Positions 26,401 to 33,354 of a DNA stretch of 43,720 nt are shown piece after piece. Position 1 is the stretch's first letter. The number at the start of each line of letters is the position of its first letter. The stretch covers positions 1-43,720 of the forward strand of contig PS015078.1 of the NCBI GenBank assembly GCA_048213135.1. The letters run 5' to 3'. The translations under genes and the position numbers were made by a program. This DNA comes from Reclinomonas americana ATCC 50394 (lineage: Eukaryota). Under the pieces are notes generated by a model, which did no database searches, was not told the DNA's origin, and saw nothing but the letters and a program-made list of their open reading frames with translations.

Positions 26401-28338
26401 TTACACTGCACGCAGCAAGGGTTTTGAGTCAAAAACAAACACAGATTACACATACATCAAGAAAACGCAACGATTGCCGCGTGCCTGCTGGTCACGCTCA
26501 ATGGCCTCGAAGAGGGCCTTGAAGTTGCCGACGCCGAAGCCGTTGTGGTTGGCGCGCTGAATGATCTCAATGAACAGCGTTGGGCGATCCTCCAGCGGCT
26601 TGGTGAAGATTTGCAGCAGGTAGCCACCATCGTCAAAATCAACCAAAATGTTCAGTGCCTCAATCGTGTCGAGGTCCTCCTTGACTTGCACCGGCGAGCG
26701 CGACAGGCGCTTGCGCAGATCGTCGTAGTACTTCTTCGGCACGTCCAGGAACTTGAGGCCGCGCGCGCGCATGGCGGCAATCGCCTCCAGAATGTTCGGC
26801 GCACGCAGCGCCACATGCTGCACACCGGCGCCGCCATAGTACTCGACGTACTCCTGCAATGACAGAGTGAGTCGTCAGCAGTCGGTGGGCATCACCGCCA
26901 GCCAACGTACCTCGATCTGCGACTTGCGCAGACCACGAGCCGGCTCGTTGATCGGCATGAGGATGTGCTCCTCCAGATCCGCCACGACAGCCGAGCGCAG
27001 TGCGCTGTAGTCGGTGTGGATCTGCGTCTCATCGACGCTCCAGTATTGCTTGAAGCCTGCGCGCGCCCATCCGAGTGAGTGAGCGCCATAATGATGGATG
27101 ATGGAAGAAGAACAAGGGGAGGGCACACTCACCAAGCTTCTCGTAATACCACCGCTCGGCCGGGTTCATGCCCTCCCAGTCCTGGTTGCCGACCACATGG
27201 TCGACGGAATCGAGGTGCACCTCCGGCCTGCACCATGCGACACACGGATAAGCGGACGATTCACGATCTCACACATCAAGCAGCAGCAGTGCGACGCAAC
27301 AGCACCGCGTTCAACGGCTCGTCCTCGGTAACGAGCTTGTAGCCCGGCAGGAAGGGGCCAGAGTAGCCATTGCGCTGCACAAACGTGTGCACCGTGTCGC
27401 CGTACTGCATCACCCAACGCATCATTCTCATAAGTTCGCCGAATCTTCCTTTGGAATGTCAGAAGATGAACAACGCACGCAACAGTCTGCACAGTGGCCA
27501 GAATCACCGAGCCGTGCTCATCCGACTCCTCCGTCGGCTCGCGGATCGACACGGCGCCCTCGCGCACGGCCTTCTCATAGATCGCGCGGCAATCGTCGAC
27601 CTCAAACGCCACATCGCGCACACCATCGCCGTGCTTCTCGAGCCACGCGCCAAACTCGTGATTGCCGGGGTTGAGCGCGCACGAGAACGCAAAGAAGATG
27701 TCGCCGTTGCGGACCACTTGTGTGGCCATCTGCGCACAAAAAACACAGTGAGACAACACACACGCGAATGTGTGTGACAAAAGGAGGATCGCACCTCGCG
27801 GTGACCGGTTTGCAGTCCGCGGAAGGCGTATGGGTGGAAGCCGAAGCGCGTGCAGTAAAAGGTCGCCGCTTGCATGGCGTTGCTCACGTACCAGTTCAAG
27901 TAGGCAAACTTGTGGAAGCGGCCGGCCTGTGAGAGAGAGAAGAGAGAGAGAAGATGATAAGGAAGAATCCAGGGAATCATCGCATCTCGCATCTCGCCAT
28001 GTGCGTCAACACGTGTGTGTGAGGGGCAGAGAGTGTCTATCTCGCTCTTTCTCTTGGCATATACACACTGGCACACTCAGATGAGAGCAAATGAGGTTTC
28101 CCCTGCTTGAGATGTCCAACTGGAGGTGGCATGCCACTCTCACTCTCACTCAAACTCTTCTCTCTTTCTTCTCACACACACGCGTGCTACTCACTGTGTG
28201 TGCACACTCACCGGAGTCGGCACCCAGCCCTCGGGAAGTCCAGCAGGAGAAGCCTGGGAGAAAACAAGGAAACATTGAGCATGTCTTCAATGCAACTGTC
28301 GCTCTCTGCAGAAAGGCTCAAACACACGCACGCACCAT
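26401..28338 (-). CDS. HPD: 4-hydroxyphenylpyruvate dioxygenase
   Basis: Motifs [89 protein letters not shown]. The last exon is only TGTAA (26405-26401). Confidence 0.97.
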
Positions 28339-28567
28339 AGTCTGTGTGTGTGTGTGAGTGCGTTGCTCCTACAAGTGCGAAAGATATGCTATGTGGGACA
28401 GATTGGTTTGTCTCTTCCGTGCTCGCCGGCGGGAAGGCAATCGACGCGGAGTGCGAGAGAAGGAGAGTCTCCGATTAGCGCGCGTTTGTGTGAGAGCAAA
28501 GCTCCGGCCGTTTCTTTCTTTTGCTAGTCCTCCTGTGAGCAAGCATCAACTGCATCCGAAGAAAAGC

Positions 28568-31765: not shown

Positions 31766-31859
31766 ACAGACTTCACGTAGAGAGAAATGTTCCGATGTCC
31801 CTCGTCCCGCGTTCTCTCAATCACACACTTCAAGTCCACTTCAAGCCTTGTGAGAGAGA

Positions 31860-33354
31860 ATGCTGAAGGCCAAGGCATTGCCGCCCGTTCTGGAACAAGC
31901 CGTCGACCACGGCGTGCGAAGTGCTCTGTTGAGTGAGCGACACTAAGACACAGAGATTCGCACACACATACACACACGTGTGAGAGATGCCACGCGTGCA
32001 ACACATGCGCGCGCTCTCTCATACACACACACGCACACAGCGAGAGAGAGAAATGACGCAAGAGAGTGTGCGCGTGTGTGTGTGCAGATGTGAACATGTG
32101 CACTCTCTCACACACGCTCTTCTTCTTCTTCTTCCGCAGTCTGTTCAATGGTGAGGGCAACCTGCTTGCGGGCAAGAGCACGGAGGGCATTGATGAGCAG
32201 TTGTTGTCGGCGATTGTGTCGAATGTGTGGAAGAGCATTGAGTCGGTGGGTGCGGGAGGTCAGCGACCTGAGGCTCTCGACTTTATGCTGGCCGACTTTG
32301 AGGTGAGAGGGAGAGAGAGGAGGAGGAGGAGAGAGAGGGAGGAGAGAAAGAAGGGAAGGGGAGAGTGTGATTGAGAGACGGAGAATAGGAATGCTGGGGA
32401 CAGAGAGAGAGAGAGAGAGAGAGAGAGAGAGAGAGAGAGAGAGAGAGAGAGAGAGAGAGAGAGACGACGACGACGAGAGAGNNNNNNNNNNNNNNNNNNN
32501 NNNNNNNNNNNNNNNNNNNNNNNNNNNNNNNNNNNNNNNNNNNNNNNNNNNNNNNNNNNNNNNNNNNNNNNNNNNNNNNNNNNNNNNNNNNNNNNNNNNN
32601 NNNNNNNNNNNNNNNNNNNNNNNNNNNNNNNNNNNNNNNNNNNNNNNNNNNNNNNNNNNNNNNNNNNNNNNNNNNNNNNNNNNNNNNNNNNNNNNNNNNN
32701 NNNNNNNNNNNNNNNNNNNNCTATGAGAGTTTGAGCAATGACAGAGCGCATCATGCAGCCGCTGCGCCTGGAGTGTGCTATCAAGAGTGTCACATTCACC
32801 TCCATTAAGTGTGACTTAGGAGAGTGTGACATTCAGTCACTGTGGCAGAGACTTGCAGATTGCACTTGAGAGCGTGGCATTCAGTCCTACTGTAGCGCTT
32901 GCGTTCGAGAGCATGACACTCTGTCACTGACTCGCAGTCCGCACCCAAAAGCACATCATTCAGCCACTGTGGCCGAGGCGCACAGCTTGTTCCCGAGAGC
33001 GTCACATGCAGCCACTGGTGACAACTCACAGCTTGCACTGAGAGCGTCACATTCACCCGCAATGAGAGCAACGCACATCTTGCACCCGATAGCATGACAT
33101 GCAGTCTCTATTCACACTTGTTGCACTCAAGAGCGACCACCATCTTCGTCGCGTCACACACGCTTTGCATCACTCTGACTCACCCTTCCGTCTTTTGTGT
33201 GCTTCAGGGCGGTCGCCTCTGCGTAGTGCCGATCTCCAAGGTGCTGCTGTGCTTGGTGGCTACCTCCAACACGCCGTTCGGTCTGCTGCGATCCAAGGCT
33301 GTGGTGCTGCAGCAAGCCATCTCGGTGCCCTTCAGCCAGATCATCGAGCAATAA
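31860..33354 (+). CDS. LAMTOR2: Ragulator subunit LAMTOR2 (roadblock fold)
   Basis: Exons 31860-31927, 32140-32302 and 33208-33354: MLKAKALPPVLEQAVDHGVRSALLFNGEGNLLA..SAIVSNVW..FMLADFEGGRL..LLCLVA..FGLLRSKA..PFSQI, colinear with LAMTOR2. Confidence 0.93.
32743..33140. repeat. Degenerate tandem array, about 10 units of 37-48 bp, in LAMTOR2 intron 2
   Basis: Core approximately TTGCACYCGAGAGCRTSACATKCAGYCACTG. AGAGY/AWAGC anchors at 32743, 32784, 32821, 32869, 32908, 32948, 32996, 33041, 33089 and 33130. Confidence 0.75.

What the first reader, a model, noticed from the sequence alone, without database searches (positions are those of the whole stretch)
26401..31934. Shifted donors never follow an exonic G: the -1 base appears to determine the register
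Seen: in my hand tally of the 34 GTTG[CAT]G donors, the last exon base is A 14, C 11, T 9 and G 0; the five GTTYYGT donors are also non-G. Most standard donors follow G. In HPPD all five standard donors are G|GT and the three GTTGCG donors are T|, T| and C|; SQT1 is similar. Inference: this is what a true register shift predicts, because G+1 takes over the pairing to U1 C9 normally made by G-1, U+3 pairs with A7, G+6 with C4, and A-1 with U10. A bulged-U model would still favour G-1. The shifted class may free the exon's last base from splicing constraint.
Basis: partly seen in the sequence, partly recalled or inferred. Interest (0 to 1): 0.72.

Follow-up and report, generated by a model that had tools for sequence, protein, structure and literature searches.

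The report
Shifted splice donors never follow G
About a third of the predicted introns in this eukaryotic genome piece start with GTTGCGT instead of the usual GTGCGT, and they almost never follow an exon ending in G, which suggests the splicing machinery reads them one base out of its normal register.

Summary
A gene finder I wrote that never looks at exon bases next to the donor predicted 124 introns. There are 34 GTTG[CAT]G donors with A13 C11 T9 G1 at -1. All 5 GTTYYGT donors are non-G. Standard donors have G at -1 in 55 of 79 (Fisher p=2.5e-13). The one G case (7986, minus strand) is weak, with two in-phase alternative donors.

Its three GTTGCG junctions align without gaps to 12 homologues.

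G is also depleted below neutral expectation: 1 of 39 against 12.3 expected.

Donors starting GTT but with G+5/T+6 (GTTTGT) all follow G, so the register of the downstream GT matters, not T at +3.

The register-shift reading is partly supported. The -1 base of the shifted class resembles -2 of the standard class. A bulged-U model would favour G-1.

Against it, pairing with a canonical U1 is very weak in every register, and energetics do not explain why G is excluded. A variant U1 is a live rival.

No RNA data, genome or U1 gene was available.

The parts
26401..28338 (-). HPPD gene, 9 exons and 8 introns: 5 standard G|GT donors and 3 GTTGCGT donors
   Evidence: Hand model equals the predicted model. 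Gap-free alignment to 12 homologues at all junctions.
28568..31765 (+).
   Evidence: The junctions at 30115 and 31394 keep WD40 blade spacing against 8 WD40 proteins.
27477..27483 (-). T|GTTGCGT donor, intron 27405-27483 (HPPD)
   Evidence: Support 8.6 nats. The Tyr encoded just after the junction is conserved in 12 of 12 homologues.
27294..27300 (-). T|GTTGCGT donor, intron 27228-27300 (HPPD)
   Evidence: Support 11.1. The split Leu codon is gap-free in the alignment.
26465..26471 (-). C|GTTGCGT donor, intron 26406-26471 (HPPD, last intron)
   Evidence: Support 9.6. Splicing gives the C-terminal Leu present in 12 of 12 homologues.
30115..30121 (+). C|GTTGCGT donor, intron 30115-30178
   Evidence: Support 8.6; WD40 spacing kept.
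31092..31098 (+). A|GTTGCGT donor, intron 31092-31153
   Evidence: Support 16.6; the alignment is not informative here.
31394..31400 (+). T|GTTGCGT donor, intron 31394-31458
   Evidence: Support 10.7; WD40 spacing kept.
1679..1685 (+). C|GTTTCGT donor, intron 1679-2139
   Evidence: support 6.6; long intron in an uncertain gene model.
3387..3393 (+). A|GTTGCGT donor, intron 3387-3446
   Evidence: support 6.5. Already chosen when no donor model was in use.
6117..6123 (+). C|GTTGCGT donor, intron 6117-6187
   Evidence: support 6.4.
7853..7859 (-). T|GTTGCGT donor, intron 7786-7859
   Evidence: support 8.1.
7980..7986 (-). G|GTTGTGC, the only G-preceded predicted donor of this class; ambiguous
   Evidence: Support 3.4. 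In-phase alternatives TCG|GTGGTT and GTT|GTGCAC lie 3 nt to either side.
8517..8523 (-). A|GTTGAGT donor, intron 8460-8523
   Evidence: support 2.9.
10090..10096 (-). C|GTTCTGT donor, intron 10031-10096
   Evidence: support 5.0.
11275..11281 (+). T|GTTGCGG donor, intron 11275-11331
   Evidence: support 6.3.
12252..12258 (+). C|GTTGCGT donor, intron 12252-12325
   Evidence: support 8.0.
17879..17885 (-). A|GTTGTGT donor, intron 17814-17885
   Evidence: support 3.4. Same position as the paralogous intron at 19732.
18301..18307 (-). T|GTTTCGT donor, intron 18232-18307
   Evidence: support 7.9.
18778..18784 (+). C|GTTGCGC donor, intron 18778-18850
   Evidence: Support 19.4. The paralogous position carries CTG|GTGTGT at 20735.
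18994..19000 (+). A|GTTGCGC donor, intron 18994-19057
   Evidence: Support 3.6. The paralogous position carries AGA|GTTGCGA at 20943.
19732..19738 (+). A|GTTGCGT donor, intron 19732-19795
   Evidence: support 3.6.
19832..19838 (+). T|GTTTCGT donor, intron 19832-19892
   Evidence: Support 5.5. The paralogous position carries GTG|GTGAGT at 17777.
20943..20949 (+). A|GTTGCGA donor, intron 20943-21004
   Evidence: support 4.2.
22643..22649 (-). A|GTTGCGT donor, intron 22584-22649
   Evidence: support 5.0.
23752..23758 (-). A|GTTGCGC donor, intron 23688-23758
   Evidence: support 7.3.
25718..25724 (+). A|GTTCCGT donor, intron 25718-25787
   Evidence: support 5.8.
25972..25978 (+). C|GTTGCGT donor, intron 25972-26032
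   Evidence: support 7.7.
26094..26100 (+). C|GTTGCGC donor, intron 26094-26150
   Evidence: support 5.4.
34282..34288 (-). T|GTTGCGG donor, intron 34225-34288
   Evidence: support 4.5.
35605..35611 (+). A|GTTGCGC donor, intron 35605-35677
   Evidence: support 7.0; low-scoring gene (score 7).
36004..36010 (+). T|GTTGCGT donor, intron 36004-36076
   Evidence: support 13.9.
37075..37081 (-). C|GTTGCGT donor, intron 37013-37081
   Evidence: support 4.1.
37452..37458 (-). A|GTTGCGT donor, intron 37382-37458
   Evidence: support 5.5.
38582..38588 (-). A|GTTGCGC donor, intron 38506-38588
   Evidence: support 13.5.
38753..38759 (-). T|GTTGCGT donor, intron 38686-38759
   Evidence: support 7.4.
39442..39448 (-). 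C|GTTGCGT donor, intron 39381-39448
   Evidence: support 11.4.
39628..39634 (-). C|GTTGCGT donor, intron 39565-39634
   Evidence: support 10.9.
42114..42120 (-). T|GTTGCGT donor, intron 42036-42120
   Evidence: support 3.5.
42338..42344 (-). C|GTTGCGT donor, intron 42283-42344
   Evidence: support 7.1.
42447..42453 (-). A|GTTGCGC donor, intron 42387-42453
   Evidence: support 7.0.
10252..10258 (-). Control: G|GTTTGTC donor (T at +3 but G+5/T+6 in the canonical register)
   Evidence: support 1.7.
20169..20175 (+). Control: G|GTTTGTT donor (canonical register)
   Evidence: support 9.1.
37674..37680 (-). Control: G|GTTTGTC donor (canonical register)
   Evidence: support 16.0.
24245..24251 (-). 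The only GTTGCGT in the window preceded by G; not a donor in my models
   Evidence: It lies in a long open frame with no pyrimidine tract or CAG at intron distance. Forcing its use costs 5.4 nats and gives a 42-nt intron ending in GAG.

Best explanation
The GTTGCGT and GTTYYGT sites are genuine GT-AG donors of ordinary short spliceosomal introns. In them the conserved intronic block (U)GCGU lies one nucleotide further from the cut than in the standard G|GUGCGU donors.

The 5' splice-site recogniser is the 5' end of U1, and probably U6 after it. It binds the same heptamer, G-[G/U]-U-G-C-G-U, in both classes. In the standard class the first G of the heptamer is the last exon base. In the displaced class it is intron base +1.

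The complex therefore sits one base downstream of its usual place, in a +1 shifted register, while cleavage still occurs 5' of the only GU. The exon's last base falls into the slot normally held by -2, where G is not wanted.

Inferred, not shown: G at -1 is counter-selected. A GG pair would lock U1 onto C9/C8 in the canonical register, and there the essential downstream G:C4 and U:A3 pairs cannot form.

Shown: the class exists, its cut site, its -1 composition, and its covariation with the position of the downstream GT.

For: 1. The cut site is proven at amino-acid level for the three HPPD introns. They are gap-free against 12 homologues. The alternative boundary TT...AGN changes a Tyr and a Leu that are each conserved in 12 of 12.
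2. A two-component mixture emerged from donors first predicted without any donor model. It is 62% GT[G][C/T/A]GT and 38% GTTGCGT.
3. Exon base -1: G in 55 of 79 standard donors, against 1 ambiguous case in 39 displaced donors.
4. The intronic consensus is displaced by exactly one base. Displaced-class -1 resembles standard -2 (p=0.076 and 0.17), not standard -1 (p=1.4e-10).
5. Internal control: GTTTGT donors, with T+3 but G+5/T+6, follow G in 3 of 3.
6. At 2 of 4 intron positions shared by paralogous genes the class has switched and -1 switched with it: GTG|GTGAGT against CTT|GTTTCGT, and CTG|GTGTGT against AAC|GTTGCGC.
7. The bulge register would gain 2.5-5 kcal/mol from G-1, so it predicts G enrichment.
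8. Both classes share length (68 against 66 nt), the CAG acceptor and a CTSAY motif about 18 nt upstream, so one spliceosome serves both.
9. Shifted and bulged U1 registers are experimentally established in human cells (Tan et al. 2016, PMC4856993, passages read).
Against: - With the canonical U1 5' end the shifted duplex is only -2.4 kcal/mol with A-1. With C or U at -1 it is no better than a 3-bp helix of -0.6. That is far weaker than standard donors at -6.1 to -8.9.
- G-1 would stabilise every register, so the proposed lock-in penalty is an added assumption.
- C at +5 is 90% conserved although it would face a U1 pseudouridine. This hints at a partner other than canonical U1.
- Against standard -2 taken over all standard donors (16 G of 79), G at -1 is still low at 1 of 39.
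- Only 3 of 39 junctions are checked against orthologues. Two more rest on WD40 spacing and six on paralogues predicted by the same program.
- There is no RNA evidence, no U1 sequence, and only one 43.7-kb window.
Confidence: 0.5

Rival explanations
1. A variant or dedicated U1 snRNA, or an organism-specific change in the U1 5' end, pairs contiguously with GUUGCGU. An example would be A instead of C at position 8. The displaced class is then a second, fully complementary donor type rather than a mismatched shifted duplex on canonical U1. Geometrically this is still a +1 register.
For: - Canonical U1 pairs very weakly with the class in any register, at -0.6 to -2.4 kcal/mol.
- A hypothetical U1 with A at position 8 gives -3.5 to -6.7 for the displaced donors, and only -0.6 to -3.6 for standard donors.
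- The displaced motif is more tightly conserved than the standard one, with C+5 at 90% against C+4 at 53%.
- The class makes up 39 of 124 predicted introns, which is a lot for a mismatched mode.
- Variant U1 snRNAs exist in humans (titles and abstracts only, listing).
Against: - No U1 gene could be examined: no genome is held and the window has no Rfam match.
- The U1 5' end is highly conserved among eukaryotes (recalled knowledge).
- Such a variant would tolerate G-1 as a G-U wobble with U10: -6.0 for G against -6.7 for A. It does not explain the exclusion of G either.
Confidence: 0.22
2. Bulged-U register on canonical U1. G+1 pairs with C8 as usual, one of the two U's bulges out, and UGCGU pairs as +2 to +6 normally do. 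On this view the lack of G-1 is a sampling or annotation effect.
For: - A register with a bulge at +2/+3 has been validated for human 5' splice sites, with 68 sites predicted (Tan et al. 2016).
- With G-1 it is the most stable register here, at -3.1 to -5.9 kcal/mol.
Against: - It predicts G-1 to be favoured as in standard donors. Observed is 1 ambiguous case in 39 against 55 of 79.
- With non-G at -1 it is no better than the other registers, at -0.6.
- The 14 unused G-preceded motifs each cost 5.4 to 19.9 nats when forced to act as donors.
Confidence: 0.08
3. The motif GUUGCGU is read mainly by something other than U1 pairing, such as U6/U5, a protein, or U1-independent definition. This would resemble how the long intronic motif of minor (U12-type) introns carries all the information without help from the exon. 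The non-G rule would then have some other cause.
For: - The intronic motif is tight and there is no positive exonic preference among A, C and T (14, 13, 11 of 39).
- Predicted U1 duplexes are weak.
Against: - A reader blind to the exon predicts a neutral -1, with 12.3 G expected of 39. Observed is at most 1 (P=7e-6; P=0.015 under the most conservative null).
- The block that is conserved is the same UGCGU as in standard donors, displaced by one base.
- The 3' features are identical in both classes.
Confidence: 0.12
4. Artefact or chance. The donors are products of my, and the reader's, gene modelling, and the -1 bias comes from small numbers.
For: - There are no RNA data.
- Many genes have no homologues.
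- The donor mixture was trained on the program's own predictions.
- The motif-level test, used against unused by -1 base, gives 1 of 15 against 38 of 119, which is only p=0.066.
Against: - GTTGCGT is 2.7 times over-represented, 29 against 10.8 +/- 3.1. Of the 29, 21 start a predicted intron of 57-85 nt ending in CAG.
- The class appeared before any donor model was used.
- Three junctions are verified by orthologues.
- The -1 base was never scored.
Confidence: 0.05

Closest known systems
+1 shifted-register 5' splice sites recognised by U1 (Roca & Krainer 2009, Nat Struct Mol Biol). The paper itself is not held; I saw it only as cited and summarised in Tan et al. 2016, PMC4856993, passages.
   Same: - It is a GU donor whose downstream consensus lies one base further in, so that G+1 faces U1 C9.
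- Cleavage stays at the GU.
- The model oligo printed in Tan et al. (ACA/GUCAAGUAUA) also has a non-G base at -1.
   Different: - In humans this is a rarity. All validated noncanonical registers together make up about 1.5% of 5' splice sites. Here it is 39 of 124 predicted introns.
- The motif is GUUGCGU, not GU[N]NAAGU.
- The predicted duplex with canonical U1 is far weaker.
- No suppressor-U1 test exists for this case.
- Strict avoidance of G-1 is not something I could find stated for the human sites.
Bulge +2/+3 register of 5' splice site/U1 pairing (Roca et al. 2012, Genes Dev; not held; summarised in Tan et al. 2016).
   Same: The sequence form is the same: GU, an extra U, then the usual downstream consensus.
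   Different: That register keeps G-1:C9 and G+1:C8, so it should favour G-1. Here G-1 is excluded.
Canonical AG|GTGCGT donors of GC-rich protists such as Micromonas (Verhelst et al. 2013, PMC3879977, passages read).
   Same: The standard class here (G|GTGCGT, 19 of 55 exact matches among G-1 donors) matches that consensus, so the standard class is ordinary.
   Different: No GTTGCGT class is described in the passages I read.
U12-type (minor) introns (recalled knowledge, no call).
   Same: A long, tightly conserved intronic donor motif without need of an exonic G.
   Different: The donor motif is unrelated to the U12-type motif. The branch-like motif, acceptor and length are the same as in the standard introns of this window. 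The class is not rare.
Introner elements, meaning repeat introns (Micromonas IE families, PMC3879977).
   Same: A class of introns with its own typical donor sequence.
   Different: The intron bodies share nothing beyond the first 7 bases. The best class-specific 5-mer has p=0.0056 among 132 tested.

Membership tests
+1 shifted-register U1/5' splice-site pairing | Cleavage occurs at the GU although the consensus is displaced | tested here: met
   Three HPPD junctions are fixed at residue level by 12 homologues. Two WD40 junctions are supported by blade spacing. The other 34 are predicted only.
+1 shifted-register U1/5' splice-site pairing | Intron positions +3 to +7 match canonical +2 to +6 | tested here: met
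   T100/G87/C90/G100/T72% against T100/G84/C53/G89/T75%.
+1 shifted-register U1/5' splice-site pairing | Exon -1 behaves like canonical -2, with no G preference | tested here: met
   A14 C13 G1 T11 against standard -2 A26 C19 G16 T18 (p=0.076), and against standard -1 (p=1.4e-10).
+1 shifted-register U1/5' splice-site pairing | The shifted duplex is more stable than the canonical one with the organism's U1 | tested here: inconclusive
   With a canonical U1 end, A-1 gives -2.4 against +0.9. C or U at -1 gives -0.6 in every register. G-1 favours the bulge or canonical register. The organism's own U1 is unknown.
+1 shifted-register U1/5' splice-site pairing | Rescue by suppressor U1 in the shifted register only | not testable with these tools
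   This needs minigene experiments.
Bulge +2/+3 register | G-1:C9 and G+1:C8 are kept, so G-1 is favoured as in canonical donors | tested here: not met
   G-1 in 1 ambiguous case of 39 against 55 of 79.
U12-type introns | Own donor motif and own branch-site motif close to the acceptor, distinct from major introns | tested here: not met
   Both classes share CTSAY about 18 nt upstream (26 of 37 against 24 of 40), the CAG acceptor and length. The U12 consensus itself is recalled, not searched.
Introner / repeat introns | Sequence similarity between intron bodies | tested here: not met
   No class-specific 5-mer survives correction for 132 tests.
HPPD (4-hydroxyphenylpyruvate dioxygenase) | Full-length collinear similarity to HPPD proteins | tested here: met
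   The query exon is 79% identical to the best hit and 100% covered. The whole model aligns to 12 homologues. Pfam gives Glyoxalase and HPPD N-terminal hits.
   Searches with the last exon returned only generic WD40 proteins.

The most novel reading that the evidence does not exclude
This organism runs a two-register donor code genome-wide. Roughly one intron in three carries GUUGCGU and is read one base downstream of the normal register. The last exon base acts as the register switch: G selects the canonical register, and non-G is required for the shifted one. This lets introns sit where the protein code cannot supply a G. The class is enriched in phase 2, where -1 is a second codon position (15 of 39 against 14 of 79, p=0.022).
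Probability: 0.3. Interest if true: 0.8.

Novelty: new variant of a known kind. Interest (0 to 1): 0.62.

Why it matters
Shifted and bulged U1 registers are known only as rare exceptions in human genes, studied one minigene at a time. A genome in which about a third of the donors use one displaced motif, with a clean exon-side rule (never G) and natural class switches at conserved intron positions, would be a natural experiment on three questions:
- how the 5' splice site register is set;
- how U1-defined and catalytic (U6-defined) positions are reconciled;
- how splice signals and coding constraints trade off at the last exon base.

It also matters practically. Gene finders trained on a single donor matrix would miss or misplace a third of the introns of this organism.

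Tried and rejected
- RNA evidence: no RNA holder was listed for window 19000-28900.
- Whole genome: none is held.
- Rfam at gathering thresholds: no match in the window, so no snRNA to inspect.
- Earlier notes of this scan: nothing on this genome, and two unrelated intron notes.
I then scanned stop-free fragments and predicted exons. Only HPPD, WD40, a homeodomain, a DnaJ fragment and a few weak hits appeared.
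- Homologues for the WD40 gene: only generic WD40 proteins (and PDB). The SQT1 label is therefore unverified.
- Homologues for the 22-exon membrane-protein gene: 1 weak hit in 1.84 billion representatives, so no junction check was possible.
- HPPD relatives in metagenome contigs: 76% identity at best. L001 has no introns at these sites.
- Alternative boundary TT...AGN for the GTTGCG introns: rejected at 2 of 3 HPPD junctions. The third gives the same mRNA either way.
- Origin by G+1 to T mutation with a one-base slide of the cut: rejected as a general route. It would shift the frame, and paralogues switch class without moving the boundary.
- Introner family and U12-like class: rejected.
- Compensation, meaning a stronger intronic consensus when -1 is not G in the standard class: not seen, 19 of 55 against 9 of 24, p=0.80.
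- The six-base pattern GTTGHG alone is at chance level, 114 against 114. Only the 7-mer with T at +7 is enriched.
- Literature: searches for GTTGCG or GUUGCG with 'splice site' and 'intron' found only primers and unrelated papers. A search for registers across species found a tunicate paper that merely mentions a shifted register as a possibility.
- Roca & Krainer 2009 and Roca et al. 2012 are not held. Their supplements could bear on the -1 composition of human shifted sites.

Full report
WHAT THE WINDOW IS. The window is a draft piece of an intron-rich eukaryote. It has 15 N gaps, GC about 0.55 and many microsatellites. No whole genome is held for it. No RNA run was listed, and no Rfam family reaches threshold. 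The best protein relatives of its HPPD exon are only 79% identical. Metagenome contigs reach 76%. The organism's own annotation is therefore not available, and every gene model here is mine.

CHECKING THE TWO NAMED GENES. I read HPPD on the minus strand by eye and checked the model in a script.
- It has 9 exons and 8 introns.
- The five standard donors all follow G.
- Three GTTGCGT donors follow T (27483), T (27300) and C (26471).
- The spliced protein aligns to 12 HPPD homologues without a gap at any junction.
- At the first GTTGCG junction, the residue encoded right after the cut is a Tyr present in 12 of 12 homologues.
- At the last one, splicing supplies the C-terminal Leu present in 12 of 12.
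- A rival boundary one base downstream (TT...AGN) would change both residues, so it is rejected there.
- At the third junction both boundaries give the same mRNA.

The WD40 gene on the plus strand has GTTGCGT donors after C, A and T. Two of these junctions keep the spacing of a WD40 blade when aligned to 8 unrelated WD40 proteins, and the third is uninformative. Its identity as SQT1 could not be tested, because searches returned only generic WD40 proteins.

AN INDEPENDENT TALLY THAT IGNORES THE -1 BASE. I wrote a dynamic-programming gene finder. It uses:
- codon log-odds;
- an intron Markov model;
- an acceptor matrix over -20 to -3;
- a length prior;
- a donor score that uses intron positions +3 to +8 only.

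With no donor model at all, it already chose GTTGCG donors at 3387, 27483, 27300, 36004, 39448 and 38588. An EM mixture on the predicted donors then separated two components: 62% GT[G][C/T/A]GT and 38% GTTGCGT.

The final run gave 124 introns in predicted genes scoring at least 6. The strands were run separately and not reconciled, so some weak overlapping models are included. Two single-exon models scoring below 6 were dropped.

Counts:
- Standard donors: 80, one of them next to a gap. The -1 base is G55 A9 T10 C5.
- GTTG[CAT]G donors: 34, with A13 C11 T9 G1.
- GTTYYGT donors: 5, with A1 C2 T2.
- Other donors with T at +3: 5.
- Fisher's test gives p=2.5e-13.
- In the best-supported subset the split is 23/4 against 0/26, p=3.2e-11.

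THE EXCEPTIONS.
- The one G case is GTG|GTTGTGC at 7986 on the minus strand. Forbidding it costs only 3.4 nats. Two other GT dinucleotides, 3 nt to either side, would give in-frame alternatives, so it is ambiguous.
- A second G-preceded prediction, G|GTTGCCT at 18140, has support 0.2 and lacks G at +6.
- The other 14 G-preceded occurrences of the motifs, on either strand, each cost 5.4 to 19.9 nats when forced to be donors.
- The only G-preceded GTTGCGT (24251, minus strand) lies in a long open frame with no pyrimidine tract.

IS IT MORE THAN CHANCE?
- The 6-mer GTTGHG is at chance frequency.
- The 7-mer GTTGCGT occurs 29 times against 10.8 +/- 3.1 in shuffles. Of these, 21 start a predicted intron.
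- G at -1 is depleted not only relative to standard donors but relative to neutrality.
- From codon-position composition and intron phases, 12.3 of 39 would be G (P of at most 1 = 7e-6).
- G makes up 25.6% of bases before exonic GT (P=1.4e-4).
- G precedes 14 of 95 non-donor copies of the same motifs (P=0.015).
- The motif-level test, used against unused, is weak: 1 of 15 against 38 of 119, p=0.066.

WHAT DISTINGUISHES THE CLASS.
- The intronic consensus is the standard one moved by one base.
- T at +7 (72%) matches standard T at +6 (75%), not standard +7 (32%).
- The -1 base of the displaced class is unlike standard -1 (p=1.4e-10). It is not significantly unlike standard -2 (p=0.076, or p=0.17 against donors that have G-1).
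- Three donors start GTT but keep G+5/T+6 (GTTTGT). All follow G. So the rule tracks where the downstream GT lies, not the T at +3.
- The two classes do not differ in length, base composition, CAG acceptor, a CTSAY motif about 18 nt upstream, or any body 5-mer. They are therefore one kind of intron handled by one spliceosome, not a repeat family or a minor-type class.
- The displaced class is enriched in phase 2: 15 of 39 against 14 of 79, p=0.022 (p=0.052 in the supported subset).

NATURAL SWITCHES. Three genes in the window are paralogous in parts and share four intron positions.
- At two positions both copies are displaced-class, after the same A.
- At the other two one copy is standard after G and the other is displaced after T or C.
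- The boundary does not move, so the class and the -1 base change together.

ENERGETICS. I used the canonical U1 5' end as printed in Tan et al. 2016 and nearest-neighbour parameters.
- Standard G|GUGCGU gives -6.1 to -8.9 kcal/mol.
- GUUGCGU after A gives -2.4 in the shifted register and +0.9 in the canonical one.
- After C or U, every register collapses to the same 3-bp helix at -0.6.
- After G, the bulge +3 register (-3.1 to -5.9) and the canonical register (-2.8 to -5.6) are best.

But duplex energy with a canonical U1 neither makes the shifted duplex strong nor explains why G is excluded. A hypothetical U1 with A at position 8 would pair at -3.5 to -6.7. I could not look for such a gene.

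READING. The best-supported account is a +1 displaced register of 5' splice-site recognition. Intron G+1 takes the place of exon G-1, with cleavage still at the GU.
- The exclusion of G may reflect competition. A GG pair would hold U1 in the canonical register, out of reach of the downstream G and U. This step is inferred.
- A variant U1 is the main rival.
- The bulge model is disfavoured.
- A recogniser blind to the exon does not predict the G depletion.
- An artefact is unlikely, given the orthologue-verified junctions and the enrichment of the 7-mer.

COMPARISON WITH WHAT IS KNOWN.
- Shifted and bulged registers are established for a small share of human 5' splice sites. About 1.5% of sites use validated noncanonical registers, and 68 are predicted for bulge +2/+3 (Tan et al. 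2016, PMC4856993, passages read).
- The primary papers, Roca & Krainer 2009 and Roca et al. 2012, are not held.
- The standard class resembles the AG|GTGCGT consensus of Micromonas (PMC3879977, passages).
- Full-text searches for GTTGCG or GUUGCG with splice terms found nothing relevant.
- A search on registers across species found only a passing mention in a tunicate paper.
- Within that library I found no description of a genome in which a third of the donors use a displaced motif that excludes G-1.

LIMITS.
- This is one window.
- Gene models rest on prediction, except for HPPD.
- There are no RNA reads and no snRNA sequences.
- The donor mixture was trained on the program's own output.
- P-values for depletion depend on the null chosen, ranging from 0.015 to 7e-6.

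Noticed in passing
window 15796-18329 (-), 18131-19220 (+), 19398-21095 (+): Three neighbouring genes share paralogous N- or C-terminal domains and four intron positions. At two of them the donor class differs between copies, and the -1 base differs with it.
   Followed up: partly
window 10252-10258 (-), 20169-20175 (+), 37674-37680 (-): GTTTGT donors have T at +3 and +4 but G+5/T+6. They all follow G, unlike GTTGCGT donors.
   Followed up: yes
window-wide, 39 displaced against 79 standard introns: Displaced-class introns are enriched in phase 2 (15 of 39 against 14 of 79, p=0.022). In that phase the last exon base is a second codon position, where G is rare (19%).
   Followed up: partly
window 15799-16992 (-) and 13671-14007 (-): A long single-exon WD40 array built from 126-nt tandem units. 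A near-identical WD40 fragment lies beside an N gap a few kb away.
   Followed up: no
window 29018-29960 (+): The third intron of the WD40 gene holds (GT)n, (GA)n, (GTA)n and 10-nt repeat arrays around a 403-base N gap, so its donor cannot be placed with confidence.
   Followed up: no
window 42561-42902 (-); 21840-22211 (+): A homeodomain exon (Pfam E=3e-10), and the tail of a DnaJ domain split by an intron and an N gap.
   Followed up: no
window 42554-42560 (-): T|GTTGCAT is a well-supported donor (11.6 nats).
   Followed up: no
window 36557-41300 (-): A 22-exon gene for a large multi-pass membrane protein. It has no Pfam match and only one weak hit among 1.84 billion representative proteins when searched with its 101-residue exon.
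   Followed up: partly
window about 29641-30100: The ruler of the long get_sequence output reads one base behind DNA search, the script and a short get_sequence call from somewhere in this repeat-rich stretch. Coordinates in this report follow the latter three.
   Followed up: partly
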